Part shown: piece after piece, positions 29,529 through 60,295 of the stretch
Position numbering within the stretch: position 1 is the first letter of the stretch
Layout: each line of letters starts with the position of its first letter
DNA from: Parcubacteria group bacterium GW2011_GWA2_40_14
GTDB lineage: Bacteria > Patescibacteriota > Minisyncoccia > Phycocordibacterales > DATDWN01
DNA: 64,000 bases
NCBI GenBank assembly: GCA_000996025.1
Contig: LBYF01000001.1
Coordinates: 3,507 to 67,506, forward strand
Reading direction: 5' to 3'
Made by a program: the position numbers and the translations under genes
The notes under the pieces: model-generated
Told to the model about the DNA's origin: nothing
What the model saw: the letters and a program-made list of their open reading frames with translations, nothing else
Database searches by the model: none

Positions 29529-29537
29529 ACATATTGT

Positions 29538-46330: not shown

Positions 46331-46407
46331 TAAAAACCTCGATAAAAGACTTCCATACTGTTGTTTGTTTTTAACTTTTGTAAGAAAATTGCATATGCTA
46401 TAATCTT

Positions 46408-47022
46408 ATGTATATGGACAGAGGAGAAGAATACAAAAAAAGGCTAAAAGACTTTCTAGATTCTGATACTACAGAAGCAAAAATTGCAATGGTGGCTCTT
46501 TGTGTATTTGCTGTAGCCTCCCTCCCCATTCTCGTGGTTGGGGTTGCGGCTATGGGTAATGTGGTGCAGACGTTTCAGATGTTTAAGAGGTCTAAAAAGT
46601 ATTCTAGAATGCAAATTCAAAGCGCGGTTGAAAGTACTAAGCGTCAAAAGCTTATAGAATATGTTACTGACAAAGACGGAAAAACAATAGTAAAAATTAC
46701 AAAGAAAGGTGAAACTAAGTTAAGAACTTTTGACATTGAGCTTATGTGTATTAATACGCCAAAGAAATGGGATGGTAAATGGAGATTGGTCATGTTTGAT
46801 ATTCCTATGCGATTTACAAAAGGCAGAGAAGCTCTGAGATATCATTTGAAAAATTTAGGTTTTCTCCAATTTCAGAAATCCGCATGGATACACCCTTTTC
46901 CTTGTGAAGATGAAATCTTGTTTATTGCCGATTTTTTTGGAATAGGGAAGCACGTGGAAATTTTAACTGTAGAAAATCTCTTAAACGACGAAAAATTAAA
47001 GAAACATTTCCGACTTGATTAG
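46408..47022 (+). CDS. Membrane-anchored PaaX C-terminal-domain-like (Cas2/VapD-fold) protein
   Basis: There is an N-terminal TM. KKWDGKWRLVMFDIPMRFTKGREALRYHLKNLGFLQFQKSAWIHP matches the PaaX_C W-G-W motif region. Confidence 0.5.
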   Translation: MYMDRGEEYKKRLKDFLDSDTTEAKIAMVALCVFAVASLPILVVGVAAMGNVVQTFQMFKRSKKYSRMQIQSAVESTKRQKLIEYVTDKDGKTIVKITKKGETKLRTFDIELMCINTPKKWDGKWRLVMFDIPMRFTKGREALRYHLKNLGFLQFQKSAWIHPFPCEDEILFIADFFGIGKHVEILTVENLLNDEKLKKHFRLD

Positions 47023-47098
47023 TTTTTTTCTTACATAAGATTACAGCATATGCAGAAAAGTTATTAATTATACAAATCATATAAATTGAAACAATGTT

Positions 47099-47845
47099 TT
47101 GCAAGTTGTGGTTTCCGACATTCTTATACAAGACATAAATGACCAGAAAGAGTTTTTCTGCTATACTTATTTAAGTATGTTTATATGGAATCTATTAGTT
47201 AAAAATTTTCCTGAATACTGTGAATCAGTAGCTGGCTTTTGGACGGTTGAACCACTGAACGCACTAACTAACTTCGCGTTTTTTATCGGAGCATATTATT
47301 TATTGAAATATATCCGTGTTAATAATTTAAAAAACCGCTTAAGCATTTTCTTGACAGGATTAATGGTAGTTATGGGATTAGGCAGTCTATTGTGGCATTC
47401 GTATAGATCAGAAATAACGATGTTGCTTGATACCTTGCCGATTTACATTTTCTTTATTTTAGCCCTTTATCTTTTTGTACAGGTTCTTACAAAAAATAAA
47501 AAACTTACCATTGTTATTTTGGCTTTATTAGGATTAATATATTATTTAATTTTTACTTATATTCCTGGTCTAAATATTTTTAGTGGTTCACTAAAGTATA
47601 TTTTTATTCTTATAGTTTTAGTAGCATTAAGTTTTTTTATAAGAAAGAAGTATGGATATGATTATAACTTTTTAACACCACTAGGCATCTTTTTAGTGGC
47701 GATAATGTTAAGGACGATTGATATTTTTATGTGTCCATTTTTCCCATTCGGAACTCATTTTATATGGCATATTTTGATTGCAATAGCTATGTATTTCGGT
47801 TCAACTCTAATTTTGCGTTTAAATGCTAAAATGAATCAAGTCTGA
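47099..47845 (+). CDS. Polytopic membrane protein (7-TM, possibly ceramidase-like hydrolase)
   Basis: This is a hydrophobic ORF with conserved His residues (WHSYRSE, THFIWHIL). The family assignment is uncertain. Confidence 0.35.
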   Translation: MQVVVSDILIQDINDQKEFFCYTYLSMFIWNLLVKNFPEYCESVAGFWTVEPLNALTNFAFFIGAYYLLKYIRVNNLKNRLSIFLTGLMVVMGLGSLLWHSYRSEITMLLDTLPIYIFFILALYLFVQVLTKNKKLTIVILALLGLIYYLIFTYIPGLNIFSGSLKYIFILIVLVALSFFIRKKYGYDYNFLTPLGIFLVAIMLRTIDIFMCPFFPFGTHFIWHILIAIAMYFGSTLILRLNAKMNQV

Positions 47846-47863
47846 TTAACAATTTCAATTCTC

Positions 47864-48184
47864 GTGTTTTTGGTGTATAATAAAGAAATGAAATTAAGTA
47901 TTGAGGAAATAAAAGAAAAAATAACTCCGATTTTGGAGAAGTACGGCGTGACTTACGCCGGTGTTTTCGGTAGTGTGGCGCGCGGTGATGCTCGTCCGGA
48001 CAGTGACGTGGATATTCTCGTTAAAATCCGTAATCCCATTAGCATATTCGTCTTTTTTAAGATGAATGATGAATTGGAAGAAATATTGGGACGAAAGGTG
48101 GATTTAGTGACGGAAAACTCTCTTATTCGTTATTTCAAGCCATATGTGATGCTTGATTTAAAGCCACTCTATGAAGTCAGATAA
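47864..48184 (+). CDS. Nucleotidyltransferase antitoxin MntA (minimal NTase)
   Basis: GVFGSVARGDARPDSDVDILV is the pol-beta-type NTase signature. Confidence 0.8.
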   Translation: MFLVYNKEMKLSIEEIKEKITPILEKYGVTYAGVFGSVARGDARPDSDVDILVKIRNPISIFVFFKMNDELEEILGRKVDLVTENSLIRYFKPYVMLDLKPLYEVR

Positions 48185-48488
48185 AGTATACTGCGAATAT
48201 ATTATCAGTTGTATAGATAAAGTTGGCCGTTTTACTTCTGGAATGAAACGAGAGGATTTTCTTGCAAGTGAGTTAGTGCAAAGTGCAGTAATCTTGCAAC
48301 TCCTTCTTATTGGTGAATTGTCAAAAAATTTATCGTCTGAATTTAAGAAAAGTACTGATTTGCCTTGGACACAAATTTCCGGTTTCCGAAATAGAGCAAT
48401 CCATAATTATTATGAACTTGAGCTGGAATTCGTTTGGTTTGCAGTTCAAAATGATTTGTTTCCTATTAAAGAAGCTGTCTCCAAATAA
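48171..48488 (+). CDS. HepT (DUF86) HEPN-family toxin
   Basis: RNRAIHNY matches the R-x4-H-x-Y HEPN motif. The gene overlaps the NTase gene by 14 nt. Confidence 0.8.
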   Translation: MKSDKVYCEYIISCIDKVGRFTSGMKREDFLASELVQSAVILQLLLIGELSKNLSSEFKKSTDLPWTQISGFRNRAIHNYYELELEFVWFAVQNDLFPIKEAVSK

Positions 48489-48493
48489 AAATC

Positions 48494-49084
48494 ATGTCTC
48501 CTCAAACTTTTATTTTTATCGGCAGGTCCGGGTGTGGTAAAGGAACACAGGCCGAGCTTTTACAAAAACGGGTCAAAGAAAAAGACCAATCGAGTGAGAT
48601 TTTTTATCTTGAAACTGGAGCATATTTCAGAGAGTTTTTAAGGGGAGAAAAATATTCAAATAAATTAGCAAATGAAATATATAAAAAAGGCGAGCGCCAG
48701 CCGGACTTTCTGGCTGTGCATATTTGGTCGCATATTCTTATCGGAGATTTCAAAGGCACAGAGCACGCATTTTTTGACGGTATTTGCCGCTCTCTTCCGG
48801 AAGCCACCACTTTTACCACTGCTTTGGAGTTTTATGGACGCAAAGCCATTGTAATTTATCTGAATGTTTCGCGGGAATGGTCGGAGGAGCGCCTTCTTCT
48901 CCGCGGGCGAGCAGATGACAAGAGTAAGGAAGAAATAAAAAAACGACTTGACTGGTTTGATAAAGATTCGTATCCTGCAGTAGAGTATTTTAATATGCAC
49001 AAACAATATACTCTTTTGGATATAAACGGCGAGCAGAGTATAGAAAAGGTACATGCCGATATTGTAGGGAAGCTGGGATGGTAG
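48494..49084 (+). CDS. adk: Adenylate kinase (short-LID type)
   Basis: The P-loop is GRSGCGKGTQ, the LID is short (RGRADD), and the gene is in the expected operon position. Confidence 0.7.
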   Translation: MSPQTFIFIGRSGCGKGTQAELLQKRVKEKDQSSEIFYLETGAYFREFLRGEKYSNKLANEIYKKGERQPDFLAVHIWSHILIGDFKGTEHAFFDGICRSLPEATTFTTALEFYGRKAIVIYLNVSREWSEERLLLRGRADDKSKEEIKKRLDWFDKDSYPAVEYFNMHKQYTLLDINGEQSIEKVHADIVGKLGW

Positions 49085-49129
49085 CAAAACCCTTGACTTC
49101 TGTATATACTCCGCATATACTGTGTATAT

Positions 49130-49399
49130 ATGACACAAGTAGTTATAAATTTCAAAACGGATGCTAAGCTAAAGAGCGCAGCCAAAGATGTTCTCGATGA
49201 GATGGGTCTGAATTTTTCCATTGCTTTTAACGCCTACATGAAAAAGTTGATTACTGAGAGGAGAATAGAGTTTACCACGCCAGAGATACCCAACGCTCGA
49301 CTCCGGAAAGCAATAAAAGAGGCGGATAAAGAGTATAAGAGCGGTAAGTTAAAGTTTTATACTGATATGCGCGAGATGCGCAAGTCATTAGGTGTATAA
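49130..49399 (+). CDS. RelB/DinJ-family antitoxin
   Basis: The small RHH-like protein immediately precedes a YafQ-like toxin. Confidence 0.6.
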   Translation: MTQVVINFKTDAKLKSAAKDVLDEMGLNFSIAFNAYMKKLITERRIEFTTPEIPNARLRKAIKEADKEYKSGKLKFYTDMREMRKSLGV

Positions 49400-49402
49400 A
49401 CT

Positions 49403-49663
49403 ATGCACATCGCTTTTTCTTCGAGTCTTAATAAAAAGATTAAGAAAATTCCAACAAAAATAGTTGATAAATTTTTTGAGCGATTGGAGATTTTTAAAAA
49501 GGATATATTTAGTCCAATTTTAAACAATCATAAATTGCACGCTGAATACGAAGGGTGTAGCAGTATAAATGTCACAGGTAATTTTCGAGCGATATTTAAG
49601 CATGTCGATGATAATCATGTCGTTTTTTCTGATTTAGATACTCACCCCGAACTCTACGGCTAA
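49403..49663 (+). CDS. YafQ/RelE-family mRNA interferase toxin
   Basis: The C-terminus HKLHAEYEGCSSINVTGNFRAIFKHVDDNHVVFSDLDTHPELYG parallels the YafQ C-terminus. Confidence 0.65.
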   Translation: MHIAFSSSLNKKIKKIPTKIVDKFFERLEIFKKDIFSPILNNHKLHAEYEGCSSINVTGNFRAIFKHVDDNHVVFSDLDTHPELYG

Positions 49664-49679
49664 TTTTTATTTTTGAATT

Positions 49680-50447
49680 ATGATTACAATAAAAAAACCA
49701 GAAGAAATAGAAATTTTGAAAGAAGGCGGGAGACGGCTTGGTATTGTTTTGCGCAAAGTAAGCGAGATTGTCAAACCAGGCATTTCTACACAGGAACTTG
49801 AGGACTTGGCACGCAAACTGATAGAAGATGGTGGTGATACCGCATCATTTCTAAATTACAAACCGCGTGGAGCAAAACGGCCGTTTCCTGCGGCCATATG
49901 TGTGTCCATAAACAACGAAATCGTTCACGGTATTCCCAACGAAAGGCCACGCATAATTCAAGAGGGCGACATTGTTTCTCTTGATTTAGGTATTACACAC
50001 AAAGGTATAATAACAGACAGTGCCGTGTCTGTGGGTGTTGGTAAAATGGCGCCTATTGACCAGAAGCTGATAGACCATTGCAGGGAAGCTTTAGCACTCG
50101 GTATCAAGGCCGCTCGCGGCGGTAATCACATAGGCGATATTGGCTATGCAATAGAGTCGTTTGCCCGCCCTCTGGGCTACGGGCTATCAGAGGGGCTTGC
50201 AGGACATGGGGTTGGTTACAAGGTTCACGAAGACCCATTTGTGCCAAACGAAGGGGAAATCGGTAGAGGCGAGCTTCTGCGTCCAGGTATGGTCCTAGCC
50301 CTTGAGCCGATGCTGACTCTCGGCACAGACAAAATAGTTCTAGACAAAGATGGCTATACATACAAAACCGCCGATGGTACAAACGCCGCCCACTGGGAAC
50401 ATTCTATTGTCATCACGGAAGGAGAGCCGATAATTTTGACAAAATAA
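49680..50447 (+). CDS. map: Methionine aminopeptidase type I
   Basis: The pita-bread metal ligands are in typical context (D..D, H, E, E). Confidence 0.9.
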   Translation: MITIKKPEEIEILKEGGRRLGIVLRKVSEIVKPGISTQELEDLARKLIEDGGDTASFLNYKPRGAKRPFPAAICVSINNEIVHGIPNERPRIIQEGDIVSLDLGITHKGIITDSAVSVGVGKMAPIDQKLIDHCREALALGIKAARGGNHIGDIGYAIESFARPLGYGLSEGLAGHGVGYKVHEDPFVPNEGEIGRGELLRPGMVLALEPMLTLGTDKIVLDKDGYTYKTADGTNAAHWEHSIVITEGEPIILTK

Positions 50448-50503
50448 ATATTTAAACATACAAATAGTTGCTTTTCAGAGAAATATGATTTACTATACGT
50501 TAC

Positions 50504-50692
50504 ATGAACACTATGACTAAAAAAGTAAAAAAACAAAAAAATCTTTTACAGCATATTTTTAACGAAATCCGCTTATTGCGAAGCGAGGTAACTTTATTTA
50601 TGCCTGACGAAAATTTAAATGGGTATGCCCATCCATCAAGAATAAAAAAATCTTTCGAAAGAGCTTTACGTCAATACCCAAGAACAATCTAA
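50504..50692 (+). CDS. Putative antitoxin partner of the downstream RelE/ParE toxin
   Basis: The small basic ORF overlaps the toxin start (TAATG). Confidence 0.35.
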   Translation: MNTMTKKVKKQKNLLQHIFNEIRLLRSEVTLFMPDENLNGYAHPSRIKKSFERALRQYPRTI

Positions 50693-50949
50693 TGTATGTC
50701 ATTAAAACTTCTGATTTTGAAAGAGCATATAAAAGGTTACCTTTTGGCATACAAAAACTTTGTCTTATTCAAGAAGAAAGATTTGCTTTAAGTTCTCGCG
50801 ATCCAAGGTTACATATAAAAAAACTGAAAGATTTTGATGATGCCTTTTCTTTCAGGATTACTAGAAAATATCGGGCATTGTTTTATTTTCAAAATGCAGA
50901 GACTGTGATATGTTTTGATATTGACCATCGTAAAGATGTTTACAAATAG
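50692..50949 (+). CDS. RelE/ParE-family toxin
   Basis: LHIKKLK...FSFRITRKYRALFYF...VICFDIDHRKDVYK matches the RelE/ParE fold pattern. Confidence 0.7.
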   Translation: MYVIKTSDFERAYKRLPFGIQKLCLIQEERFALSSRDPRLHIKKLKDFDDAFSFRITRKYRALFYFQNAETVICFDIDHRKDVYK

Positions 50950-50985
50950 TTGCTTTTTATTACCGTATCGATATACTGATGCTCT

Positions 50986-52056
50986 ATGAAAGTTGATACT
51001 TTGAAGCTGTCCAGAACTAAAGTTGCTGGTCTTACAAAAAAATTTGATTTAAATAACCCCGTATCGCGCAAGCTATATTTTGTGGCTAAGGTGGGTAAAG
51101 AGATAAAGGCTCTGCAAAAATATTTAAAATCGGGCAAGCGTTTTGTGGCATTTCTCATTGGTATAAAAAATTCCGGTAAAGGAACGTATGCAAAATTGTT
51201 TCTGGAAGCAGTAGGTCCTCTCGCCGTCCATATATCTATCGGGGATATTGTGCGCGATGTTCATACGAGCATCGAAACCCCAACTGGCAAGAAAAAATTA
51301 ATCAATTTTTTGAAGAAAAACTATCGCGGATTTCATAGTCCAGAAGAAACTATTAAAGCAATACTCGGACGCAGTCAATCAACTCTCATTACTTCTGAAC
51401 TTATTTTGGCCCTTATCAAATTTGAAATAAGCAAACATCCGAACCAGTCATTATTTATTGACGGTTTCCCTCGCGCTTTTGACCAGATTCCGTACTCACT
51501 CTTTTTGAAAGAGATTATTGGTTATCAAGGAGTGCCAGACGTTTTTGTTTTCTTTAATGTTCCAACCAGTGTGATTGACGAGCGCATTAAGACTCGGGTT
51601 ATTTGTCCTGTTTGCAAAACATCGAGGGGTTTGAAACTTTTGCCAACAACAAAAGTCGGATATGATGCAAAAAATAAAAAGTTTTATCTAGAATGTGACA
51701 ATCTTTCCTGTCCTGGCTCACGAATGATAGCGAAAGAGGGCGACGAGCTTGGTATAGAACCTATCCGTGAACGAATCGAAACTGATTCAAAAATTTCCAA
51801 AGAATTACAAAAAATTCACGGTGTGCCAAAAGTATTTCTGCGCAACGCCATTCCAGTTGTACACGCCAAAAAAATCGTAGATGATTACGAAATTACCCCT
51901 GAATATCAGTACAAACTAGATAAATCAGGTAAGGCGGTTATTGTAGAAGTACCATGGACAGTTAAAGACGACCAGGGAGTAAAATCTTACAGTCTCCTGC
52001 CCTCTGCGGTTGTCATTTCACTTATAAAGCAATTAGCCAATATTCTTACTAAATAA
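50986..52056 (+). CDS. Second adenylate/nucleoside-monophosphate kinase paralog with a zinc-ribbon LID and N- and C-terminal extensions
   Basis: The P-loop is GIKNSGKGT, followed by IDGFPRAFDQ and a LID with CPVC...CDNLSCPG (four Cys). Only the middle ~250 aa of the 356-aa ORF is the kinase core. Confidence 0.65.
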   Translation: MKVDTLKLSRTKVAGLTKKFDLNNPVSRKLYFVAKVGKEIKALQKYLKSGKRFVAFLIGIKNSGKGTYAKLFLEAVGPLAVHISIGDIVRDVHTSIETPTGKKKLINFLKKNYRGFHSPEETIKAILGRSQSTLITSELILALIKFEISKHPNQSLFIDGFPRAFDQIPYSLFLKEIIGYQGVPDVFVFFNVPTSVIDERIKTRVICPVCKTSRGLKLLPTTKVGYDAKNKKFYLECDNLSCPGSRMIAKEGDELGIEPIRERIETDSKISKELQKIHGVPKVFLRNAIPVVHAKKIVDDYEITPEYQYKLDKSGKAVIVEVPWTVKDDQGVKSYSLLPSAVVISLIKQLANILTK

Positions 52057-52589
52057 GCTTTCTCATGACAAAGTCATTAATTATCACTTAGTTCAGGAAG
52101 ACATTCTCTACGACGTTAATTTAGACGGTATATTAGAATAGAAGCTGCTTCGCGCTTTTATTTCACTCACCCTACGTCAGGCTTAAAAGTCAATAGCCCA
52201 ACTTCATCGTGTATTCCTCCAGCTGTGATACAATATAAACAGGGTTACGTATATTTTCTACCTAACCATTTTTTAGGGAGTCCAATATTTTTGTGCCACG
52301 ATGAGTAAAATTTATTATTTTGTTCTGACGAGTACAATTGCGGACACCCACCTACGAGTTTTGTAGGAGAATATTCGTAATCCGATTAAGCTATCCAGTA
52401 TTTTTGCAAAAAGAGCTGGATGTTTTAATTTATCTTATTTTCGGATTTTTTGTAATCCTGAATACACATCATCAAAATTACAAAATCGTTAATAAGTACT
52501 TATTTATAGCCATATATACTTTGTTAATTCATTGAATATATTAACTTAATCAATTTGGATTATAAACAAATTCGTGTTAAAATAGATGT

Positions 52590-52868
52590 ATGAATACACC
52601 CTTAAGTCAGTTTATAAAACAGAGGCCTCATTTGATTTGGTATACCAAAAACTATGACGGTTTGGACGCCGAATCCATCGTTGAAGCTACACTAAACTAT
52701 GGTAATTGGGACGATGTGCAGGAACTTATAAAAATTCTAGGAATGAAAAAAACCGCCCAGATTTTCCGAGAAAAATCCAAACCGGATAAATTTGGCAGAC
52801 AGAATTACGATTCTCGGGTAAAAAATTATTTTCAACTATACTTTGGTAAATATGTCAAACATGCATAA
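52590..52868 (+). CDS. Hypothetical protein, possible cognate partner of the downstream AbiEii-like toxin
   Basis: The ORF overlaps the next gene by 26 nt. No family was recognised. Confidence 0.3.
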   Translation: MNTPLSQFIKQRPHLIWYTKNYDGLDAESIVEATLNYGNWDDVQELIKILGMKKTAQIFREKSKPDKFGRQNYDSRVKNYFQLYFGKYVKHA

Positions 52869-53654: not shown

Positions 53655-54056
53655 ATGATGTTTCAAACAAAACTTTTTAAACAAGCATTCCTTCTGCTTT
53701 TTGTTGTTGGTATTTTAAATTTGGTTGGAACAGAACTATATTTGTATTGGACACTCTGGTGGTATGACATTATTCTACATTTTCTCTCTGCTGGGGTGGT
53801 TTCTCTAGCTACCATTGTATTCTTTCGCATCTTTCTTGGAAAACGGTTGTCAGGTCAGACATTAATTAAATATGCGGTTTTTTGCGCCCTAGTAGTTGGT
53901 ATTATCTGGGAAATATATGAACTTTATTTTGAGATGACATATCTTTCTGACGGCATGATTTATGTAACAGACACAGTATCAGACCTTATTATGGACATTG
54001 CAGGTGGACTTCTCGGTTCAATATATGCAATTAGATTAGTAAAAAATAATGAGTAA
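53655..54056 (+). CDS. Small 4-TM membrane protein
   Basis: The hydrophobic ORF overlaps the downstream beta-CASP gene by 8 nt. Confidence 0.4.
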   Translation: MMFQTKLFKQAFLLLFVVGILNLVGTELYLYWTLWWYDIILHFLSAGVVSLATIVFFRIFLGKRLSGQTLIKYAVFCALVVGIIWEIYELYFEMTYLSDGMIYVTDTVSDLIMDIAGGLLGSIYAIRLVKNNE

Positions 54057-55422
54057 ATTACAAATAACTTTTTATGGCGGAGTAGGCACTGTTACAGGGG
54101 CAAATTTCTTGCTTGAAAGTAATAACACCAAGATTCTTATTGATTGTGGACTATTACAAGGCACACCCGATGGAGTGGAGGAAAATAGGAAACCATTTCC
54201 ATATGATACAAAATCAATAGATTATCTTTTTATCACCCATGCTCACATGGACCATATAGGCAGAGTGTGCAAGCTAGTCAGAGATGGTTTTAGAGGGACA
54301 ATTTATTCAACACCTGAAACAAGAGAGATTGCTAGTGTCATGATTCTTGATGCATTAAAAATAATGGACCAAAATTATCGCAATCCACAAAACGGAGTTA
54401 GCGAAAGGCCATTATATGAACTAGCTGACTATAACCAAGCGTTTTCTATATGGAAAACCATAGAATATGATACCCAAACTGAAATTAATGAAGAATTTTC
54501 AGTTTATCTGAAAGATGGTGGGCATATTCTGGGCTCTGCCATGTATGAATTTAGTTATAATGGTAAAAAAGTTGTTTTTACGGGCGATTCTGGGAATTCT
54601 CCCTCACCGCTTTTGAAAAATACAGAAAATGTGACTGATGCAGATTATCTAATCATTGACAGTGTTTATGGCGACAGAAATCATGAGCCAAAAGAGGAAA
54701 GAGACCAAAGATTTAAGCAAATTATTTTAGATACGATAGAAAAAAGAGGGGCACTAGTTATTCCAGCATTTTCTGTAGAGCGAACGCAAGTTATTTTGTA
54801 TGAATTAAATAATCTAGTTGAAGAAAAAAAGATCCCATCTGTGCCAGTTTTTCTAGATTCACCTTTGGGTTCAAAAGTGACGAACATTTACGCTAGAAGT
54901 TCAAAAGATTTTAATACTGGAGTGCAGAGAGAAATAAAAGAAGGAGATGATATTTTTAATTTTCCAAAACTGACTATCACTGCGGGTTCAGGGGATTCCA
55001 AACAGATTGTCAGTATTCCAAATCCCAAAATAATCGTGGCGGGTTCAGGAATGTCTTCTGGTGGCAGGGTATTGTGGCACGAGATGCAATACTTGCCAGA
55101 CCCAAAGAACACAGTACTTCTCATGGGCTACCAAGCACTTGGCACATTGGGTAGAAGAATACAGGACAAACCAAAGGAAGTGGAAATACATGGTCAAATC
55201 GTACCCATTCGTGCTCGTATAGAAATGATTTCCGGCTACTCATCGCACAAAGACTCTGATAGCTTGGTGGCTATGGTTGAGCAAACAAAAGCTACGTTGA
55301 AAAAAGTTTTTGTAGTCATGGGCGAACCAAAGTCATCCACATATCTGGCCCAGCGTCTGCGCGATGAGCTTCTCGTGGAAGCTATTTACCCAGAAAAAGG
55401 CAAACCTTATCTATTGGAGTAA
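54049..55422 (+). CDS. Beta-CASP / MBL-fold RNA-metabolising metallo-hydrolase (RNase J/CPSF-like)
   Basis: ITHAHMDHIG (HxHxDH), DSVYGD, and a beta-CASP middle region with an RNA-specificity C-terminus are present. Confidence 0.8.
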   Translation: MSKLQITFYGGVGTVTGANFLLESNNTKILIDCGLLQGTPDGVEENRKPFPYDTKSIDYLFITHAHMDHIGRVCKLVRDGFRGTIYSTPETREIASVMILDALKIMDQNYRNPQNGVSERPLYELADYNQAFSIWKTIEYDTQTEINEEFSVYLKDGGHILGSAMYEFSYNGKKVVFTGDSGNSPSPLLKNTENVTDADYLIIDSVYGDRNHEPKEERDQRFKQIILDTIEKRGALVIPAFSVERTQVILYELNNLVEEKKIPSVPVFLDSPLGSKVTNIYARSSKDFNTGVQREIKEGDDIFNFPKLTITAGSGDSKQIVSIPNPKIIVAGSGMSSGGRVLWHEMQYLPDPKNTVLLMGYQALGTLGRRIQDKPKEVEIHGQIVPIRARIEMISGYSSHKDSDSLVAMVEQTKATLKKVFVVMGEPKSSTYLAQRLRDELLVEAIYPEKGKPYLLE

Positions 55423-55467
55423 ATTGCTAATTGATTTTTAATGACGAAGTGATATACTGGAGGCACT

Positions 55468-55656
55468 ATGAGCAAAGCTGAAAAGGAAATTGTAAAAGTG
55501 GTCAAAAAGACAATTCTCGAATCTATTCATGGGGTTTTTGCCGACCCTGATCAAGGACTGGAACTCAAAGAATCTATAAAAAGACGCCTGAAAAAAGCAT
55601 CGTTATCTCCCAAAGGATTTATTACCCTTCCATCCGCCAGAAGAAAATTTGCTTAA
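55468..55656 (+). CDS. Putative antitoxin for the downstream RelE/ParE toxin
   Basis: The 62-aa ORF has an SD (GGAGG) and sits 5 nt before the toxin gene. Confidence 0.45.
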   Translation: MSKAEKEIVKVVKKTILESIHGVFADPDQGLELKESIKRRLKKASLSPKGFITLPSARRKFA

Positions 55657-55661
55657 TTTAT

Positions 55662-55925
55662 ATGTTGCGCTGGAAAGTAATTTTTTCGCTTGACGCACAA
55701 GATGATTTGGATAATTTGTCTCGCTCAGTGCGGGATAGGGTTTTTGATAAGCTGGGATGGTTTGAAAATAATTTTGACTCAATAACACCTCTCCTTTTAA
55801 CTGGGAAGTTTAACGGTTTCTACAAGTTGCGAGTGGGTGATTGGCGGGTAATGTATCAGATTGATTGGAATAAAAATTATATTATTATTCATGTTATTGA
55901 CCACAGATCAAACATCTACAAGTAA
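55662..55925 (+). CDS. RelE/ParE-family toxin
   Basis: YKLRVGDWRVMYQIDWNKNYIIIHVIDHRSNIYK is the canonical RelE/ParE C-terminus. Confidence 0.75.
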   Translation: MLRWKVIFSLDAQDDLDNLSRSVRDRVFDKLGWFENNFDSITPLLLTGKFNGFYKLRVGDWRVMYQIDWNKNYIIIHVIDHRSNIYK

Positions 55926-56059
55926 CTGTTATGAGGAAACGCTTTAAAAATAAGAGAGAGAGTCATGTGCTTTATGTAAACCCCATAAGCGAGGTTGGGC
56001 AATGCGCTGGAGTTCAAAAGAAGCCGAACTACTTAGAGTTTTTGAAAGAGAGAAGGCTC

Positions 56060-56404
56060 TTACTTTGCGAATTCCAGAATTTTTTTAAATGTATTAGGAT
56101 TTTCAATAACAAGAGTAGCTAGAATTTTGCGGTCTAGGAGGATGCCTTTCTTTTTTAAACCACCCATAAGTTTGCTATATGATGTCCCAAGTTCTTTTGA
56201 GGCGTATGAAATTTTGACATTCCAGAGTTTGCGAGCGTCGCCCTTTTTGTCTCGTCTGTGCGCAAAAGCGTAAGCTCCAGCGTGAAAGATGGCTTCTTGG
56301 GCTTCCCGCTCCTTTGTAGAACGGCCATGTCGATAGCCTTTTGTCTTACGAAGAATGTTTTTACGATTCTTTAATGCATTGACCCCTTTTTTTACTCGTG
56401 TCAT
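56060..56404 (-). CDS. rplT: 50S ribosomal protein L20
   Basis: MTRVKKGVNALKNRKNILRKTKGYRHGRS is typical of L20. Confidence 0.9.
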   Translation of the reverse strand: MTRVKKGVNALKNRKNILRKTKGYRHGRSTKEREAQEAIFHAGAYAFAHRRDKKGDARKLWNVKISYASKELGTSYSKLMGGLKKKGILLDRKILATLVIENPNTFKKILEFAK

Positions 56405-56530
56405 AAATGTTACGATTTACATATTTGGCCAATCTCTGCGTTAAAACTGCAAAAATGCTCGTCACCTACCAACGAGGTAGGCTCCTCAATTTTTGCAATT
56501 TTGCCTTGATATTGTCTCAAATCTGTAAAT
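56405..56530. repeat. Family-5 element forming the rplT 5' leader (minus strand); GAGATTGGCCAAATATG lies 20 nt upstream of the ATG
   Basis: It shares the 14-mer gagattggccaaat with the rpsL leader and the hairpin CGTCACCTAC..GTAGGCTCC with the copy at 43411. Confidence 0.7.
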
Positions 56531-56563
56531 CTCGTTTTCATAATTATTTTTAATTTTTAACTT

Positions 56564-56752
56564 TTAATTTGTAATAAATCTTGCCTTATCTTTGTTACTC
56601 ATCGGGAAATTGACCATGCCTTTTTTGGCAAGTTGAGAACGGCGACTTTCTTTTGCATTGAAATGGTTTTGACCAGTTTTTCTTGCCGAAATTTTTCCAT
56701 TCTTGCTGACTTTTAGTCGTTTTGTAAAACTTTTATTTGTTTTTGTGCTCAT
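56564..56752 (-). CDS. rpmI: 50S ribosomal protein L35
   Basis: The small basic ORF (MSTKTNKSFTKRLKVSKNGK) sits between infC and rplT. Confidence 0.85.
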   Translation of the reverse strand: MSTKTNKSFTKRLKVSKNGKISARKTGQNHFNAKESRRSQLAKKGMVNFPMSNKDKARFITN

Positions 56753-56754
56753 AT

Positions 56755-56844
56755 GTTTAGTTTGTAAAGTTATAAAGTTTGTAAAGTTTCTAAAGTGGAA
56801 TGCATTTGATGTTACTTTATGAACTTTATAACTTTATGAACTTT
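56755..56844. repeat. Family-2 palindromic repeat between infC and rpmI
   Basis: The copy reads tttgtaaagttataaagtttgtaaagtttctaaagt...ctttatgaactttataactttatgaactttc. Confidence 0.75.
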
Positions 56845-57354
56845 CTAACTTCTCTCGATTACTATCGAGAGACCTTTCAAACTTTTCTTGGCGGGATCTG
56901 CCACTTTATATTCTTCGGTAATCAGTTTCAAAACCCTTTCTATGCGTTCCTTTAGAAACTTGATATCCATATATTTGGTTCTACCTGGCAAAAAAAGGTC
57001 TATTTTGATGCGATTTCCTTCCTTGAGCCAGCCACTGGCCTTTTTGGCTTTGAGCTCTAAGTCGTGTTCCCCAGTGCCTACTTTTATTTGAATATTCTTT
57101 ACCTCTACCGTATGTTGCTTGGTTTTTGCTGTTTTAAGCTTTTTGTTTTCAGCGTATTGAAATTTACCATAATCCATGATTTTTGCAACCGGTGGGTTGG
57201 CGTTTGGTGATATTAGAATAAGGTCAAGCCCCGCCTCACGGGCTTTTTCCAAAGCTTCTTTGAAAGAGATAACTCCCAGATTCGTGCCATCATCTAAAAG
57301 CACACGTAACTCTGGAGCTTGGATTTGATTGTTTATTTTTACGAATGTAGACAA
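56845..57354 (-). CDS. infC: Translation initiation factor IF-3
   Basis: IRAPELRVLLDDG..GVISFKEAL and the C-terminal domain are present. The true start codon may be non-canonical. Confidence 0.9.
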   Translation of the reverse strand: MSTFVKINNQIQAPELRVLLDDGTNLGVISFKEALEKAREAGLDLILISPNANPPVAKIMDYGKFQYAENKKLKTAKTKQHTVEVKNIQIKVGTGEHDLELKAKKASGWLKEGNRIKIDLFLPGRTKYMDIKFLKERIERVLKLITEEYKVADPAKKSLKGLSIVIERS

Positions 57355-57514
57355 TATTTTAGAACTGAATGTTCGCGATTTAACTTATAATAAAATATAG
57401 CAATAAGATATCATATTTTTTTTGGGAATGCAAAATTCATACAAGCAGTTGACTTTGGAGAGATATTACTTTAGTTTTATCTATGGATTAGCACATCGAC
57501 ATAAGGAGGCATTC

Positions 57515-58252: not shown

Positions 58253-58980
58253 ATATTTTGGAAATGAATCGAGCGAAGCTTATGACCTTGCCTATCTGGA
58301 AAGTGCGGGAGCCGTTCAGTGCCGACGAAATTTTCCACATCGTAGATGTTTTCGGGGCTTCCTGGTCGTATGACTATGAAGCGGCAAAAAGAGGTAAGGT
58401 AGGCTTGCATGCTAAGCTGAAATCCGGCCGACACGCCAATCGAGCCTTTAATTCGCGGGTCTTGTTTCAAGCTCCGAATATCAGACGTATCATGGCTTGC
58501 CAGATTGCCATGCGTTTGTATGGAGTTCTTCCGCAAACCCCTGACTATGTAGCCGGCATTCCCAACGGCGCAACAGACTTGGGTAAAGACCTTGCCTGGA
58601 TATTGAGCGCCAAAGAAGCCGAGATGAAAAAGTGTAATGGGAAGATTCATCTTGTAACGAACATTGGCTTGAGCTCAATTCTTTTTGTGGACGATTTCTT
58701 TTCCGTAGGTACAGGCTTGCGAGAAGCAGTCTTGCAGACTCACCAATCTCAACCGGAGGCAAATATAGTAAACTGCGCTCCATCCATTCTGAATCTGGGA
58801 GAGAAAAACCTTATTGTAGTTGAAGATGTCGGGATTTTTCCAATATTTTCAGTCGCCGATGGAAAAGTTCAAAGTTGGGAAAAATCTAAGTGTGTGCTCT
58901 GCAATGAGTTTGGTTCCAAACCAATAAAGTTCAAAGAGACCGATGAAAACTGGACTCTTCTGACCACATCTCAAAAATAA
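58249..58980 (+). CDS. Phosphoribosyltransferase-family protein (orotate PRTase-like)
   Basis: ILFVDDFFSVGTGL resembles a PRPP-binding motif. It is coupled to pyrF by a TTGA overlap and has an SD (AGGAGA). Confidence 0.55.
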   Translation: MNILEMNRAKLMTLPIWKVREPFSADEIFHIVDVFGASWSYDYEAAKRGKVGLHAKLKSGRHANRAFNSRVLFQAPNIRRIMACQIAMRLYGVLPQTPDYVAGIPNGATDLGKDLAWILSAKEAEMKKCNGKIHLVTNIGLSSILFVDDFFSVGTGLREAVLQTHQSQPEANIVNCAPSILNLGEKNLIVVEDVGIFPIFSVADGKVQSWEKSKCVLCNEFGSKPIKFKETDENWTLLTTSQK

Positions 58981-59094
58981 AGAAAGGAGAAACGGGGCGG
59001 ACTGCATGTTCGCCTCTGTTTATGTTTATGGCATATATACAAAAAGTATGTTATTGTGGAGAGTAAACTATTTAATATTTTTAAAATCAAAAAC

Positions 59095-59691
59095 ATGAAA
59101 ACAGAAAATTCTGTACTGATGAAACAGGCACGAGAAGCACTCTCGGGCAAATGGGGTTTAGCGATTTGGGCATTTTTTCTCTACTTTTTAATTACTTTGA
59201 TCATTCAAAATATTCCAAAAGTTGGGTCATTTATCCCGTTGTTCATCAGTGGACCAATGGCTCTTGGCTTTGCTATTTTTTCTTTGTCTATATCAAGAAA
59301 TCAAAACCCAAAACTTGAACAAATATTTGAGGGTTTTAAAAGATTCGGTACATCACTTGTAGCGTTTATACTGATGAGTTTGTTTACATTATTATGGACG
59401 CTCCTTCTCATAGTTCCGGGCATTATAGCCAGTTTATCGTATTCAATGACATTTTATATTATCGCTGATGACAGTTCTATGGGAGCAATAGAAACCATAA
59501 AAAGAAGCAAAAAAATGATGTACGGTTTCAAATGGAAGTATTTAGAACTACAACTTCGATTTTTAGGTTGGGCTCTCTTGTCTATCCTGACGCTCGGCAT
59601 TGGTCTCCTTTGGCTTGTTCCGTATATGAGTATCAGTAATGCTAAATTCTACGAGGATATAAAAATAGTTAACCTGACACCTGTATTTTAA
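59095..59691 (+). CDS. DUF975-like polytopic membrane protein
   Basis: This is a hydrophobic ORF with a conserved GxW / LLW pattern. Confidence 0.45.
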   Translation: MKTENSVLMKQAREALSGKWGLAIWAFFLYFLITLIIQNIPKVGSFIPLFISGPMALGFAIFSLSISRNQNPKLEQIFEGFKRFGTSLVAFILMSLFTLLWTLLLIVPGIIASLSYSMTFYIIADDSSMGAIETIKRSKKMMYGFKWKYLELQLRFLGWALLSILTLGIGLLWLVPYMSISNAKFYEDIKIVNLTPVF

Positions 59692-59732
59692 TACAGGTGT
59701 TGCAATTGATTGTTGAACTAGATTAATTATAC

Positions 59733-59760
59733 AAAAAGCCTTAAAAATAGGGCTTTTTGT
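59733..59760 (+). terminator. Rho-independent terminator (aaaagcc ttaaaaatag ggctttt)
   Basis: A stem plus T-run is present, and a near-identical copy occurs at 61353-61380. Confidence 0.55.
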
Positions 59761-59908
59761 TAGTTTGTGGACATGGACCCAAATACTTGGAACCAGTTGC
59801 ATGATTATGTACTGGAATGGCACCCGGCTGTAGAGGAAAATTCTCGTCGAGTGGAAGAAAAGTAATCAATAATTGAAATATTAAAAATAATTTGAGACAA
59901 TACAGTCA

Positions 59909-60295
59909 ATGAAAAAAGATTTTGATGATTGGAACAAAAAGAAAAAGAAAATTCATAAAAATGATAATGCTCCATTTTGTCACGAAAGGGAGCTCTGGTG
60001 GGGTGCTCTCGGTGTGAACATAGGTTCTGAACAAGATGGTTCTGGTAAAGAAGATTCTCGTCCAATACTTGTACTGAAAGGTTTGAGTGTCCAAACATGC
60101 GTCGTTATACCTCTTACTACTTCTACAAGTATTCATACACTGCGACCATCAGTCGGAATTGTGGAAGATGAAGAAGCACATGCTTTGATGTCACAAATTA
60201 GAGTCATTGATACAAAACGACTAATCCGCAAAATAGGTTATCTTGATAAAAAGATATTTCAACAGATACGAAAAATCGCCAAAGACATGCTTTAG
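59909..60295 (+). CDS. MazF/PemK-family toxin (no adjacent antitoxin gene recognised)
   Basis: WWGALGVNIGSEQDGSGKEDSRPILVL...VVIPLTTS parallels the MazF/Kid fold motifs. Confidence 0.65.
   Translation: MKKDFDDWNKKKKKIHKNDNAPFCHERELWWGALGVNIGSEQDGSGKEDSRPILVLKGLSVQTCVVIPLTTSTSIHTLRPSVGIVEDEEAHALMSQIRVIDTKRLIRKIGYLDKKIFQQIRKIAKDML

What the first reader, a model, noticed from the sequence alone, without database searches (positions are those of the whole stretch)
46408..60295. TA/defence-rich accessory island replaces the usual infA-rpmJ-rpsM-rpsK-rpsD-rpoA-rplQ continuation after secY-adk-map
After secY the window carries a PaaX_C-like Cas2-fold protein, a 7-TM protein, MntA/HepT, then adk, then DinJ/YafQ, then map, then an antitoxin/RelE pair, a second kinase, a 92-aa ORF plus AbiEii, a 4-TM protein plus a beta-CASP RNase, an antitoxin/RelE pair, and finally a solitary MazF at 59909. 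The alpha-operon genes are absent and rplT-rpmI-infC follow on the opposite strand. Six toxin-like genes within about 14 kb, interleaved one by one with essential genes (adk, map), is a striking arrangement. Interleaving with essentials would stabilise the TA genes against deletion.
Basis: partly seen in the sequence, partly recalled or inferred. Interest (0 to 1): 0.7.

Follow-up and report, generated by a model that had tools for sequence, protein, structure and literature searches.

The report
Toxin-antitoxin pairs peppering a core operon

Summary
The gene content is confirmed. HepT/MNT, RelB plus a YafQ/RelE-like toxin, a second RelE-like pair, AbiEii, a ParE/RelE pair and a solitary MazF are all present between secY and 60.3 kb. 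About 85 related Paceibacteria loci share the backbone secY-adk-map-(ndk or a 356-aa Adk-like kinase)-structured RNA-DUF2238-beta-CASP RNase, then rplT/rpmI/infC on the other strand. None has infA...rplQ within 10 kb of secY, so the alpha operon's absence is ancestral. DUF2238, the beta-CASP RNase, the "second kinase" and the PaaX_M protein are conserved lineage genes, not island cargo. There is no integrase and no att-like repeat. What is special to this species is that five of the seven junctions between adjacent backbone features from secY to rplT each hold one co-oriented toxin-antitoxin pair. The inserted genes have lower GC (33.9% against 40.0%). The closest relatives have the same backbone with no such pairs. 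Related pairs sit between other core genes elsewhere in the lineage, for example rpoB|rpoC. The best reading is repeated small insertions at junctions flanked by core genes. Separately, the 534-bp "gap" holds a truncated ndk and a conserved, covarying 151-nt RNA that is absent from Rfam.

The parts
45071..46330 (+). secY, a backbone gene
   Evidence: Pfam SecY, 336 bits. It served as the anchor for 80 related loci.
46408..47022 (+). PaaX_M (Cas2-like domain) protein with an N-terminal hydrophobic segment. It is a conserved lineage gene that has been relocated here, not a defence gene.
   Evidence: Pfam PaaX_M, 73 bits. Cas2 models score below their cut-offs. Homologues are 70-78% identical in Nomurabacteria, where the order is trmD-PaaX_M-rpoB-rpoC. 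A 23-nt inverted repeat at 46390-46412 and 47032-47054 brackets the gene.
47099..47845 (+). Ceramidase-like 7-TM membrane protein, a species-specific insertion
   Evidence: Pfam Ceramidase, 56 bits. It has no homologue in the 80 relatives. Its GC is 29%.
47864..48488 (+). MNT (47864-48184) plus HepT (48171-48488), a type VII toxin-antitoxin pair inserted 5 nt upstream of adk
   Evidence: Pfam NTP_transf_2 and Polbeta, 55 bits each; HepT-like, 71 bits. PADLOC PDC-S09 matches the MNT. The sequence shows the motifs GSvaRGdarpdSDvD and RnraiH. The two genes overlap by 14 nt. The same junction is occupied in L023, at 68% and 51% identity.
48494..49084 (+). adk, the short form; a backbone gene
   Evidence: Pfam ADK, 59.5 bits. 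Positional orthologue in nearly all relatives, 32-80% identical.
49130..49663 (+). RelB/DinJ antitoxin (49130-49399) plus a YafQ/HigB/RelE-like toxin (49403-49663), inserted between adk and map
   Evidence: RelB, 38.7 bits, above its cut-off. The toxin scores 23.6 bits for HigB-like and 18.9 for YafQ, both below cut-off. A homologous pair lies between rpoB and rpoC in L097, where the toxin has a precomputed YafQ_toxin hit. adk and map are adjacent in the relatives.
49680..50447 (+). map (methionine aminopeptidase), a backbone gene
   Evidence: Pfam Peptidase_M24, 141 bits.
50504..50949 (+). 62-aa putative antitoxin (50504-50692) plus an 85-aa RelE-like toxin (50692-50949), inserted between map and adk2
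   Evidence: Neither has a Pfam or NCBIfam hit. The toxin matches PDB RelE3 (3bpq) at E=0.002 over its full length. It clusters with the YafQ-like family, every member of which has a small ORF just upstream. The stop and start codons overlap (ATGA). In L090 map and adk2 are 37 nt apart with no pair between them.
50986..52056 (+). adk2, a 356-aa Adk-like nucleoside monophosphate kinase with a Cys4 lid. It is a conserved CPR gene occupying the ndk slot.
   Evidence: ADK, 46 bits. PDB adenylate kinases match at about 1e-8. There are 3925 homologues, about 60% identical across CPR phyla. The order map-adk2-RNA-(DUF2238)-beta-CASP occurs in L087, L090 and L091; L092 shows adk2 followed by beta-CASP. 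L089 has it in a different context.
52058..52141 (+). Remnant of the last 27 codons plus stop of ndk, which has been truncated
   Evidence: The translation ...DKVINYHLVQEDILYDVNLDGILE* is 70% identical to the C-terminus of L008 ndk, at E of about 1e-9 against many relatives. Intact ndk fills this slot in most relatives.
52229..52426 (+). Conserved structured RNA: -10 box at 52229-52234, RNA core at 52238-52388, intrinsic terminator at 52393-52426. It lies upstream of DUF2238 and beta-CASP throughout the lineage.
   Evidence: Nucleotide conservation is 74-82% in relatives. The covariance model finds it in 46 of the 80 relatives plus the window, and in L087 and L088, always on the + strand and always next to DUF2238 or beta-CASP. 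94% of cells are paired against 76% in shuffles, 28 of 34 pairs show compensatory changes, and slid controls give 39-55%. 45 of 47 have a -10 box at a fixed distance and 39 of 47 have a terminator. There is no Rfam 15 match.
52590..53472 (+). 92-aa DUF6922-like protein (52590-52868) plus an AbiEii-family nucleotidyltransferase (52843-53472), inserted between the RNA and DUF2238
   Evidence: AbiEii, 41.7 bits, above its cut-off; DUF6922, 20.5 bits, below its cut-off. PADLOC AbiEii matches. The sequence shows the NTase motif GGt...DfDmF. The genes overlap by 26 nt. Among the 47 loci with the RNA, only the window has anything between the RNA and DUF2238/beta-CASP.
53655..55422 (+). DUF2238 membrane protein (53655-54056) plus a beta-CASP (RNase J-like) metallo-beta-lactamase RNase (54049-55422); backbone genes, not accessory
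   Evidence: Pfam Beta-Casp, 108 bits; RMMBL; Lactamase_B. DUF2238 is a precomputed hit. The pair is present in this order in most relatives.
55468..55925 (+). 62-aa putative antitoxin (55468-55656) plus a ParE/RelE-family toxin (55662-55925), inserted between the beta-CASP gene and the end of rplT
   Evidence: ParE_toxin, 39.1 bits, above its cut-off. The partner has no family hit. The spacing is 5 nt. In L007, beta-CASP and rplT are 30 nt apart with nothing between them.
56060..57354 (-). rplT, rpmI and infC; backbone genes, convergent with the + strand cluster
   Evidence: Pfam L20, L35p, IF3_N and IF3_C. The same position and orientation hold in the relatives.
59909..60295 (+). Solitary MazF/PemK toxin gene
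   Evidence: PemK_toxin, 44.9 bits. The 217 nt upstream hold no + strand ORF of 40 aa or more. A homologue occurs only in L058.

Best explanation
The region is not a mobile island and did not displace the alpha operon. It is a lineage-wide conserved housekeeping backbone: secY-adk-map-(ndk or adk2)-leader-like RNA-DUF2238-beta-CASP RNase, convergent with rplT-rpmI-infC.

In this one Zambryskibacteria species, separate small insertions have accumulated in that backbone. Five of the seven junctions between adjacent backbone features from secY to rplT now carry one two-gene toxin-antitoxin module. The two without a pair are adk2|RNA and the overlapping DUF2238|beta-CASP:
- MNT/HepT
- RelB plus a YafQ/RelE-like toxin
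- 62-aa ORF plus a RelE-like toxin
- DUF6922-like ORF plus AbiEii
- 62-aa ORF plus ParE/RelE

The secY|adk junction also holds a relocated PaaX_M gene and a ceramidase-like membrane gene.

Shown here:
- the backbone, and its empty state in the closest relatives;
- the family assignments;
- the co-orientation and tight spacing of the inserted genes;
- their lower GC;
- a deletion scar, the truncated ndk.

Inferred:
- The modules are autonomous, addictive or abortive-infection cassettes of known types. The toxins would be RNases or nucleotidyltransferases, held in check by a co-translated partner.
- They arrived without any recombinase of their own, by recombination in the highly conserved flanking core genes. 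The organism encodes ComEC and type IV pilus DNA-uptake genes.
- They are transcribed by read-through with the operon.
- They persist because losing the antitoxin is lethal, and because deletions that spill into the neighbouring genes are purged.
For: - Backbone and ancestral absence of the alpha operon: with the positive control.
- The closest relatives have the same backbone, including adk2, with no toxin-antitoxin pairs in the secY-to-rplT stretch: L087, L090/L091 and L092.
- Family assignments.
- No integrase and no att-like repeats.
- Inserted genes have GC 33.9% against 40.0% for the backbone. Every module has overlapping or nearly abutting genes (at most 5 nt apart) and is co-oriented with the backbone.
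- The scan found no intergenic terminator-like site on the + strand between secY and adk2.
- The ndk 3' remnant next to adk2 shows that this slot has been remodelled by deletion.
- Homologous RelB/YafQ-like pairs sit at different junctions between core genes in relatives: rpoB|rpoC in L097, before rpsN in L037 and L071, after map in L068. A HicA pair lies between rplE and rpsH in L087.
- Relatives also carry varied, mostly non-toxin-antitoxin insertions at the same junctions, so these junctions are generally permissive.
- ComEC and type IV pilus genes are in the window.
- Published framework: many horizontal-transfer hotspots lack mobile-element genes, show recombination at flanking core genes, and are commoner in transformable bacteria (PMC5635113).
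- The arrangement is stable across samples: five of the six contigs retrieved agree wherever they overlap the window.
Against: - No toxin or antitoxin activity was tested.
- Two putative antitoxins (the 62-aa ORFs) and one toxin (the 85-aa ORF) have no curated family match.
- The YafQ-like toxin scores below the Pfam cut-offs.
- The genome-wide number of toxin-antitoxin pairs in this organism is unknown. The enrichment is therefore shown only against the other 54 kb of the window and against relatives.
- The number and order of insertion events is inferred, not reconstructed. MNT/HepT is shared with L023, while adk2 is shared with a different set of relatives. This could mean recombination of larger segments rather than single-module insertions.
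- Co-transcription, and the route of acquisition by transformation and recombination, are inferences only.
- In a streamlined genome most junctions are flanked by important genes, so landing "between essential genes" may carry little information.
Confidence: 0.75

Rival explanations
1. One reading: a single toxin-antitoxin/defence accessory island was inserted after secY and replaced the infA...rplQ (alpha operon) continuation.
For: The alpha-operon genes are indeed absent, and the region is rich in toxin genes. The inserted genes have lower GC.
Against: - The alpha operon is absent from this position in all 80 relatives and in the closer metagenomic relatives, which have no such pairs between secY and rplT.
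- The "island" is interrupted by six backbone features that keep the lineage's order.
- DUF2238, beta-CASP, adk2 and PaaX_M are conserved lineage genes.
- There is no integrase and there are no att repeats.
Confidence: 0.03
2. Anchoring by essential neighbours is the main cause. Toxin-antitoxin modules land everywhere but survive preferentially between essential, co-transcribed genes. There, deletions and polar disruptions are purged, and read-through transcription guarantees antitoxin supply.
For: - Five of the seven junctions are occupied.
- All modules are co-oriented and tightly spaced.
- Similar pairs lie between rpoB|rpoC and rplE|rpsN/rpsH in other Paceibacteria.
Against: - There is no genome-wide baseline.
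- Relatives with the same essential backbone have zero or one pair, so anchoring alone does not explain why this species has five.
- In tiny genomes most junctions border important genes anyway.
- This reading is compatible with the best explanation rather than exclusive of it.
Confidence: 0.25
3. Domesticated regulators. The toxins are RNases acting on mRNA, tRNA or the ribosome. They have been recruited into the translation/secretion operon to couple growth arrest to expression of that operon in an episymbiotic lifestyle.
For: The modules are co-oriented with the secY-adk-map genes and probably co-transcribed with them. An RNase J-like gene and a conserved leader-like RNA lie in the same cluster.
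Against: The modules are absent from the closest relatives, which share the same operon and lifestyle. They belong to five unrelated families and have low GC, as expected for recent accessory genes. There is no expression data.
Confidence: 0.08
4. Assembly or binning artefact: foreign toxin-antitoxin genes have been chimerically joined to a ribosomal contig.
For: One contig, L004, departs from the window at 52416, inside the terminator hairpin.
Against: Five other contigs from different samples and assemblers give the identical order at 99.86-99.98% identity. Each insertion is flanked on both sides by backbone genes on the same contig.
Confidence: 0.02

Closest known systems
HepT/MntA (HEPN-MNT) type VII toxin-antitoxin systems
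   Same: An MNT gene lies upstream of a HEPN/HepT gene and overlaps it. The GSx10DxD-type and Rx4H motifs are present. Both Pfam scores are above their cut-offs. The known mechanism is that MNT NMPylates and so neutralises the HEPN RNase (PMC11586414, abstract seen).
   Different: The pair is embedded 5 nt upstream of adk inside the secY-adk-map cluster of a CPR bacterium. Its activity has not been tested.
RelBE / DinJ-YafQ / ParDE type II toxin-antitoxin systems
   Same: Three modules have a small upstream partner and an 85-87-aa toxin of the RelE/ParE superfamily. They are translationally coupled. One antitoxin is a bona fide RelB/DinJ.
   Different: Two antitoxins match no curated family. 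Two toxins are below the family cut-offs. Whether the ParE-family member acts on gyrase or on mRNA cannot be told from sequence.
AbiE (AbiEi/AbiEii) type IV toxin-antitoxin / abortive infection system
   Same: The toxin is an AbiEii/DUF1814-family nucleotidyltransferase with the NTase motif, and it overlaps its upstream partner.
   Different: The partner is a 92-aa DUF6922-like protein, not an AbiEi (COG5340 winged-helix) antitoxin. The toxin is short, at 209 aa.
Horizontal-transfer hotspots flanked by core genes and lacking mobile-element genes (Oliveira et al. 2017, PMC5635113)
   Same: The accessory genes sit between conserved core genes. There is no integrase. Relatives carry different cargo at the same junctions. 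DNA-uptake genes are present.
   Different: Here there are several adjacent micro-hotspots inside one operon-like cluster, each holding a single toxin-antitoxin pair. Recombination at the flanking genes was not measured.
Toxin-antitoxin cassettes in chromosomal integrons and defence islands
   Same: Several unrelated toxin-antitoxin modules are packed within about 10 kb.
   Different: There is no integron integrase and there are no attC-like repeats. The modules are separated by housekeeping genes rather than forming an array.

Membership tests
HepT/MntA type VII toxin-antitoxin system | A minimal nucleotidyltransferase (MNT) with the GSx(9-11)DxD motif | tested here: met
   NTP_transf_2, 54.7 bits (cut-off 21); Polbeta, 55.7 bits. 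The sequence shows FGSVARGDARPDSDVDILV.
HepT/MntA type VII toxin-antitoxin system | A HEPN toxin with the Rx4-6H motif, adjacent to the MNT | tested here: met
   HepT-like, 70.9 bits (cut-off 23.5). The sequence shows RNRAIH. The genes overlap by 14 nt.
HepT/MntA type VII toxin-antitoxin system | RNase toxicity neutralised by AMPylation | not testable with these tools
   This needs expression and biochemical assays.
RelBE / DinJ-YafQ type II (49130-49663) | An antitoxin of the RelB/DinJ family directly upstream of the toxin | tested here: met
   RelB, 38.7 bits (cut-off 22.4). The spacing is 3 nt.
RelBE / DinJ-YafQ type II (49130-49663) | A toxin that passes a RelE/YafQ/HigB family model | tested here: inconclusive
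   HigB-like, 23.6 bits (cut-off 27); YafQ, 18.9 (cut-off 30); RelE_StbE, 19.4 (cut-off 27.9). The homologue in L097 has a precomputed YafQ_toxin hit.
RelE-type type II (50504-50949) | A toxin with RelE-family similarity | tested here: inconclusive
   No Pfam or NCBIfam hit. PDB RelE3 (3bpq) matches at E=0.002 over the full length. BLAST against the YafQ-like toxin gives 5e-5. The protein falls in the same single-linkage cluster.
RelE-type type II (50504-50949) | A recognisable antitoxin family | tested here: not met
   The 62-aa ORF has no hit in Pfam or NCBIfam. Only its position and the ATGA stop/start overlap support the role.
ParDE/RelBE type II (55468-55925) | A toxin that passes the ParE/RelE model | tested here: met
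   ParE_toxin, 39.1 bits (cut-off 23).
ParDE/RelBE type II (55468-55925) | A recognisable ParD/RelB/Phd antitoxin | tested here: not met
   The 62-aa ORF has no family hit. It lies 5 nt upstream of the toxin.
AbiE type IV toxin-antitoxin system | An AbiEii (DUF1814) nucleotidyltransferase toxin | tested here: met
   AbiEii, 41.7 bits (cut-off 22.5). PADLOC AbiEii matches at 2.4e-7.
AbiE type IV toxin-antitoxin system | An AbiEi (COG5340, winged-helix) antitoxin upstream | tested here: not met
   The upstream partner is 92 aa and only weakly DUF6922-like, at 20.5 bits against a cut-off of 27. It has no PADLOC hit.
MazEF type II | A PemK/MazF toxin | tested here: met
   PemK_toxin, 44.9 bits (cut-off 23.1).
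MazEF type II | An adjacent MazE antitoxin | tested here: not met
   There is no + strand ORF of 40 aa or more in the 217 nt upstream. The only MazE-like gene in the window is at 15043-15327.
Integrative genomic island | An integrase or recombinase, and flanking direct (att) repeats | tested here: not met
   No such domains in any ORF between 45 and 61 kb. The longest direct repeats are at most 31 nt; the longest (31 nt) is a pair of terminator hairpins and the rest are short two- or three-copy matches at 68-88% identity.
Integrative genomic island | A contiguous block that is absent as a whole from relatives | tested here: not met
   The insertions sit at five separate junctions of a backbone that is conserved in about 85 related loci.
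Canonical spc-alpha operon continuity (map-infA-rpmJ-rpsM-rpsK-rpsD-rpoA-rplQ) as the lineage's normal state | Relatives carry infA/rpsM/rpsK downstream of map | tested here: not met
   tblastn with E. coli InfA, RpmJ, RpsM and RpsK gives no hit at E<=1e-4 in 86 loci or the window; at E<=1 only chance-level RpsK hits remain, best 0.07. The control queries work.
CRISPR Cas2 | Passes a Cas2 model, with cas1 or a CRISPR array nearby | tested here: not met
   TIGR01573 cas2 scores 18.2 bits against a cut-off of 24.5. There is no cas1 gene or repeat array. The best match is PaaX_M.

The most novel reading that the evidence does not exclude
Two readings remain open.

(a) In Paceibacteria, the junctions between genes of core information-processing operons (secY-adk-map, rpoB|rpoC, rplE|rpsN) may be the preferred capture-and-retention sites for toxin-antitoxin cassettes. 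The cassettes would be exchanged by transformation and recombination in the conserved flanks and anchored by their essential neighbours. This window would be the extreme case.

(b) The 151-nt RNA at 52238-52388 may be a previously undescribed structured RNA found across Paceibacteria. It has a promoter, a three-way-junction fold, an intrinsic terminator and then a start codon. This suggests a riboswitch-like or autoregulatory leader of the DUF2238/RNase J-like operon, or possibly a 6S-like RNA. In this species the AbiE-like pair has been inserted between that leader and the genes it precedes.
Probability: 0.4. Interest if true: 0.6.

Novelty: new member of a known kind. Interest (0 to 1): 0.38.

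Why it matters
Ultra-small CPR/Patescibacteria genomes are often said to have shed classical defence and toxin-antitoxin systems; one paper makes this statement citing earlier work (PMC12455944). Here a member of that group carries five toxin-antitoxin pairs in 10 kb, threaded through one of its most conserved gene clusters.

This gives a clean natural example of how accessory genes enter a streamlined genome that has almost no spare room. They enter as two-gene units at junctions flanked by core genes, without any recombinase of their own. The comparison also corrects an annotation trap: in this lineage the spc cluster does not continue into the alpha operon.

The by-products may be worth more than the original finding:
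- a conserved, covarying RNA upstream of an RNase J-like gene that is not in Rfam;
- an in-place replacement of ndk by an Adk-like kinase.

Tried and rejected
- **Integrase and att repeats at the proposed borders.** None were found. The only notable repeats are terminator hairpins and a 23-nt inverted repeat that brackets only the PaaX_M gene.
- **Alpha-operon genes elsewhere in the window or within 10 kb of secY in relatives.** None, with a working positive control.
- **Rfam.** Only tmRNA passes in the whole window. Permissive scans of the conserved RNA in three genomes gave only chance-level hits.
- **Promoter scan.** The counts are at the level of shuffled sequence, so it is uninformative.
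- **PADLOC.** It supports only the MNT (PDC-S09) and AbiEii. It gives nothing for HepT, MazF or the small partners.
- **The idea that the PaaX_M/Cas2-like gene, the second kinase, DUF2238 and beta-CASP are island cargo.** Rejected after the homologue and synteny searches.
- **The idea that relatives' insertions at the same junctions are also mostly toxin-antitoxin pairs.** Rejected. Of 106 distinct inserted ORF clusters, only a few match toxin-antitoxin families (HicA 2, RelB 2, HepT 1). The rest are methyltransferases, kinases, transporters, DGR-like genes and others.
- **The L004 variant junction at 52416.** Its GC is similar on both sides, so chimera and real variant cannot be told apart.
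- **DUF6922.** No literature was found on it.

Full report
**1. What is in the sequence**

All genes below are on the + strand.

- secY: 45071-46330.
- A PaaX_M (Cas2-like) protein: 46408-47022.
- A ceramidase-like 7-TM protein: 47099-47845.
- MNT (47864-48184), overlapping HepT (48171-48488).
- adk: 48494-49084.
- RelB (49130-49399) and a weak YafQ/HigB/RelE-like toxin (49403-49663).
- map: 49680-50447.
- A 62-aa ORF (50504-50692) and an 85-aa ORF (50692-50949).
- A 356-aa Adk-like kinase: 50986-52056.
- A 534-nt stretch with no gene.
- A DUF6922-like 92-aa ORF (52590-52868), overlapping AbiEii (52843-53472).
- DUF2238 (53655-54056), overlapping a beta-CASP RNase (54049-55422).
- A 62-aa ORF (55468-55656) and a ParE/RelE toxin (55662-55925).

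rplT, rpmI and infC follow on the - strand (56060-57354). After them come pyrF, two unknown genes, a solitary MazF (59909-60295) and a beta-lactamase-like gene.

The 85-aa ORF has no Pfam hit. It matches RelE3 (PDB 3bpq) over its full length at E=0.002. It also matches the window's YafQ-like toxin by BLAST.

The MNT, HEPN and AbiEii catalytic motifs are visible in the translations. PADLOC adds PDC-S09 for the MNT and AbiEii models. MazF has no antitoxin-sized ORF upstream.

The rest of the window was scanned for comparison. It holds only one toxin-antitoxin-like gene, a MazE/AbrB-like ORF at 15043-15327.

**2. Whose genome, and is the assembly sound**

The Map protein occurs on many contigs. 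Six were retrieved. They come from JGI, ENA and NCBI and include two Rifle "Candidatus Zambryskibacteria" MAGs.

Five of the six give the same order at 99.86-99.98% identity wherever they overlap the window. The sixth, L004, departs at 52416.

**3. Comparison with relatives**

A SecY-anchored scan of one genome per species returned 80 loci with 64-83% SecY identity. They are labelled Zambryski-, Nomura-, Kaiser-bacteria and "Paceibacterota".

tblastn and ORF clustering show a shared backbone: secY-adk-map-ndk-DUF2238-beta-CASP, convergent with rplT-rpmI-infC. Several genomes have nothing else in between, for example L007, L009, L020, L024, L055 and L064.

E. coli InfA, RpmJ, RpsM and RpsK find nothing at E<=1e-4 in any locus or in the window; at E<=1 only chance-level RpsK hits appear (best 0.07). 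Three other E. coli ribosomal proteins, used as controls, find their CPR orthologues at 1e-25 to 1e-37.

The alpha operon's absence after map is therefore ancestral for this large clade.

**4. Which "island" genes are really accessory**

Four of the supposed cargo genes are not accessory.

- DUF2238 and the beta-CASP RNase are part of the backbone.
- The 356-aa kinase has thousands of homologues, about 60% identical across CPR phyla.
  - In the closest relatives found it sits exactly here. L087, L090 and L091 have map-adk2-(RNA)-(DUF2238)-beta-CASP, and L092 has adk2 followed by beta-CASP. None has a toxin-antitoxin gene between secY and rplT.
  - A more distant homologue lies between aspS and a NUDIX gene.
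- Directly after adk2, the window still encodes the last 27 codons of ndk (52058-52141). ndk was therefore truncated when this slot was remodelled.
- The PaaX_M protein is 70-78% identical in Nomurabacteria. There it lies between trmD and rpoB. It is a conserved gene relocated here, not a Cas2 or a toxin.

The truly species-specific insertions are:
- the ceramidase-like gene;
- MNT/HepT, which is also found at the same junction in L023;
- RelB plus the YafQ-like toxin;
- the 62-aa plus 85-aa pair;
- DUF6922-like plus AbiEii;
- the 62-aa plus ParE pair;
- MazF, further on.

Their pooled GC is 33.9%, against 40.0% for the backbone. Every pair overlaps or is at most 5 nt apart, and all are co-oriented with the backbone. 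No integrase or att-like repeat exists.

**5. Is the pattern special**

Relatives do carry insertions at the same junctions, but of many kinds. Among 106 distinct inserted ORF clusters only a few are toxin-antitoxin families: HicA 2, RelB 2, HepT 1.

No relative has more than one pair in this backbone; the window has five. Five of the seven junctions between adjacent backbone features from secY to rplT are occupied.

The same YafQ/RelE-like family, always with a small upstream partner, appears at other core junctions in the lineage:
- between rpoB and rpoC in L097;
- before rpsN in L037 and L071, and after map in L068;
- a HicA pair also lies between rplE and rpsH in L087.

Toxin-antitoxin insertion between core operon genes therefore recurs in Paceibacteria.

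**6. Most likely mechanism**

Shown: a conserved backbone, its empty state in close relatives, separate small co-oriented insertions, a deletion scar, and no recombinase.

Inferred:
- The modules are ordinary addictive or abortive-infection cassettes. HepT is an RNase neutralised by MNT-mediated NMPylation (PMC11586414). RelE/ParE-type toxins and the AbiEii NTase make up the rest.
- They were acquired without mobile-element machinery, by recombination in the conserved flanking genes. This matches the description of hotspots free of mobile elements, particularly in transformable bacteria (PMC5635113).
- The window itself encodes ComEC and type IV pilus genes.
- Retention is helped by addiction and by the cost of deletions that reach adk, map or secY.

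It is untested, and it cannot explain why sister species with the same backbone have no pairs.

**7. The 534-nt "gap"**

Besides the ndk remnant, the gap contains a 151-nt element (52238-52388) that is 74-82% identical at the nucleotide level in relatives.

Alignment and RNAalifold give a fold with four parts:
- a closing stem;
- a long AU-rich stem;
- a junction with highly conserved unpaired bases and an invariant GGG/CCC helix;
- a variable apical arm.

A covariance model finds it in 46 of the 80 relatives plus the window. It also finds it in L087 and L088. It is always on the + strand and always next to DUF2238 or beta-CASP.

Support for the structure is strong. The caveat is that the alignment was fitted to the model.
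- 94% of cells are paired, against 76% in shuffles.
- 28 of 34 pairs show double changes.
- Slid controls give 39-55%.
- A small 3' hairpin also covaries, though less strongly.

45 of 47 copies have a TATAAT/TATACT box at a fixed distance upstream. 39 of 47 have a hairpin plus a T-run 20-35 nt downstream. The DUF2238 start codon usually follows within 35-90 nt of the RNA's 3' end. That layout points to a cis-acting leader rather than a free sRNA. A 6S-like RNA is not excluded.

Rfam 15 has no match.

Only in the window does anything separate this RNA from DUF2238/beta-CASP: the AbiE-like pair.

**8. Verdict**

The toxin-antitoxin modules belong to known families. The arrangement is an unusual but explicable accumulation at core-flanked junctions. 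The "replacement of the alpha operon" is not real.

Noticed in passing
window 52229-52426 (+): A conserved 151-nt structured RNA (core 52238-52388) with its own -10 box and an intrinsic terminator. It lies upstream of DUF2238 and the beta-CASP RNase in 46 of the 80 related genomes, and also in L087 and L088. Covariation is strong and Rfam 15 has no match. It is a candidate leader or riboswitch of an RNase J-like operon, or possibly a 6S-like RNA.
   Followed up: partly
window 52058-52141 (+); 50986-52056: A remnant of the last 27 codons of ndk lies directly after the 356-aa Adk-like kinase. That kinase occupies the ndk slot in this sub-lineage (L087, L090, L092) and independently in L080. ndk itself occurs as two types, about 40% identical, distributed patchily among relatives. 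This suggests repeated replacement at the slot, and that the kinase may substitute for Ndk.
   Followed up: partly
window 46390-46412 and 47032-47054; L079 11961-11997 / 12566-12602; L073 14475-14513 / 15119-15157: The PaaX_M gene is bracketed on both sides by copies of a palindromic site (core TGCATATGC in the window and in L079). The site sequence differs in each genome, but the layout is the same. In relatives, orthologues lie immediately upstream of rpoB-rpoC. The sites could be operators of an autoregulator, or the ends of a small cassette.
   Followed up: partly
L097 9996-11268; L087 2007-2430; L037 6757-7254; L071 5212-5728: Toxin-antitoxin pairs inserted between other core genes in related genomes. 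A RelB/YafQ-like pair, plus a 209-aa ORF, lies between rpoB and rpoC. A HicA pair lies between rplE and rpsH. RelE-like pairs lie just before rpsN.
   Followed up: partly
window 40395-41912: Inside the spc operon, between rplE and rpsN/rpsH, there is an ORF of unknown function and a protein with four tandem HTH_3 domains (40878-41912). Both are absent from the 80 relatives. The population is polymorphic at 40663. L001 and L002 carry 127 extra bases, which extend the 89-aa ORF to 170 aa. L004 carries about 680 extra bases.
   Followed up: partly
L004 12737 onward (window 52416): One contig from another sample follows the window up to the 3' arm of the RNA's terminator hairpin. It then continues into unrelated genes (BcrAD_BadFG/HGD-D on the other strand), with similar GC. 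Chimera and real rearrangement cannot be told apart.
   Followed up: partly
window 15043-15327 (+): A solitary MazE/AbrB-type (SpoVT-AbrB fold) gene, 45 kb away from the solitary MazF at 59909.
   Followed up: no
window 26970-29837 and 31926-32291: An 852-aa ORF with no Pfam match, together with a weak DUF5663-like 99-aa ORF, sits between fusA and tuf. A 121-aa ORF with no match sits between tuf and rpsJ. These are further non-canonical insertions in the str/S10 region.
   Followed up: no
window 61444-61842 (-): A tmRNA gene (Rfam 76.9 bits) lies next to smpB (61920-62363, - strand). The 101-aa ORF at 61436-61741 overlaps it and is probably spurious.
   Followed up: no
L007-L086, inserted ORFs between secY and infC: Among relatives' insertions in the same backbone are bAvd-like (2) and reverse-transcriptase (1) matches, suggesting a diversity-generating retroelement. 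A recurrent ~920-aa ORF cluster with no assigned family also lies after map in about 17-20 loci. The loci carrying bAvd and the reverse transcriptase were not identified.
   Followed up: no
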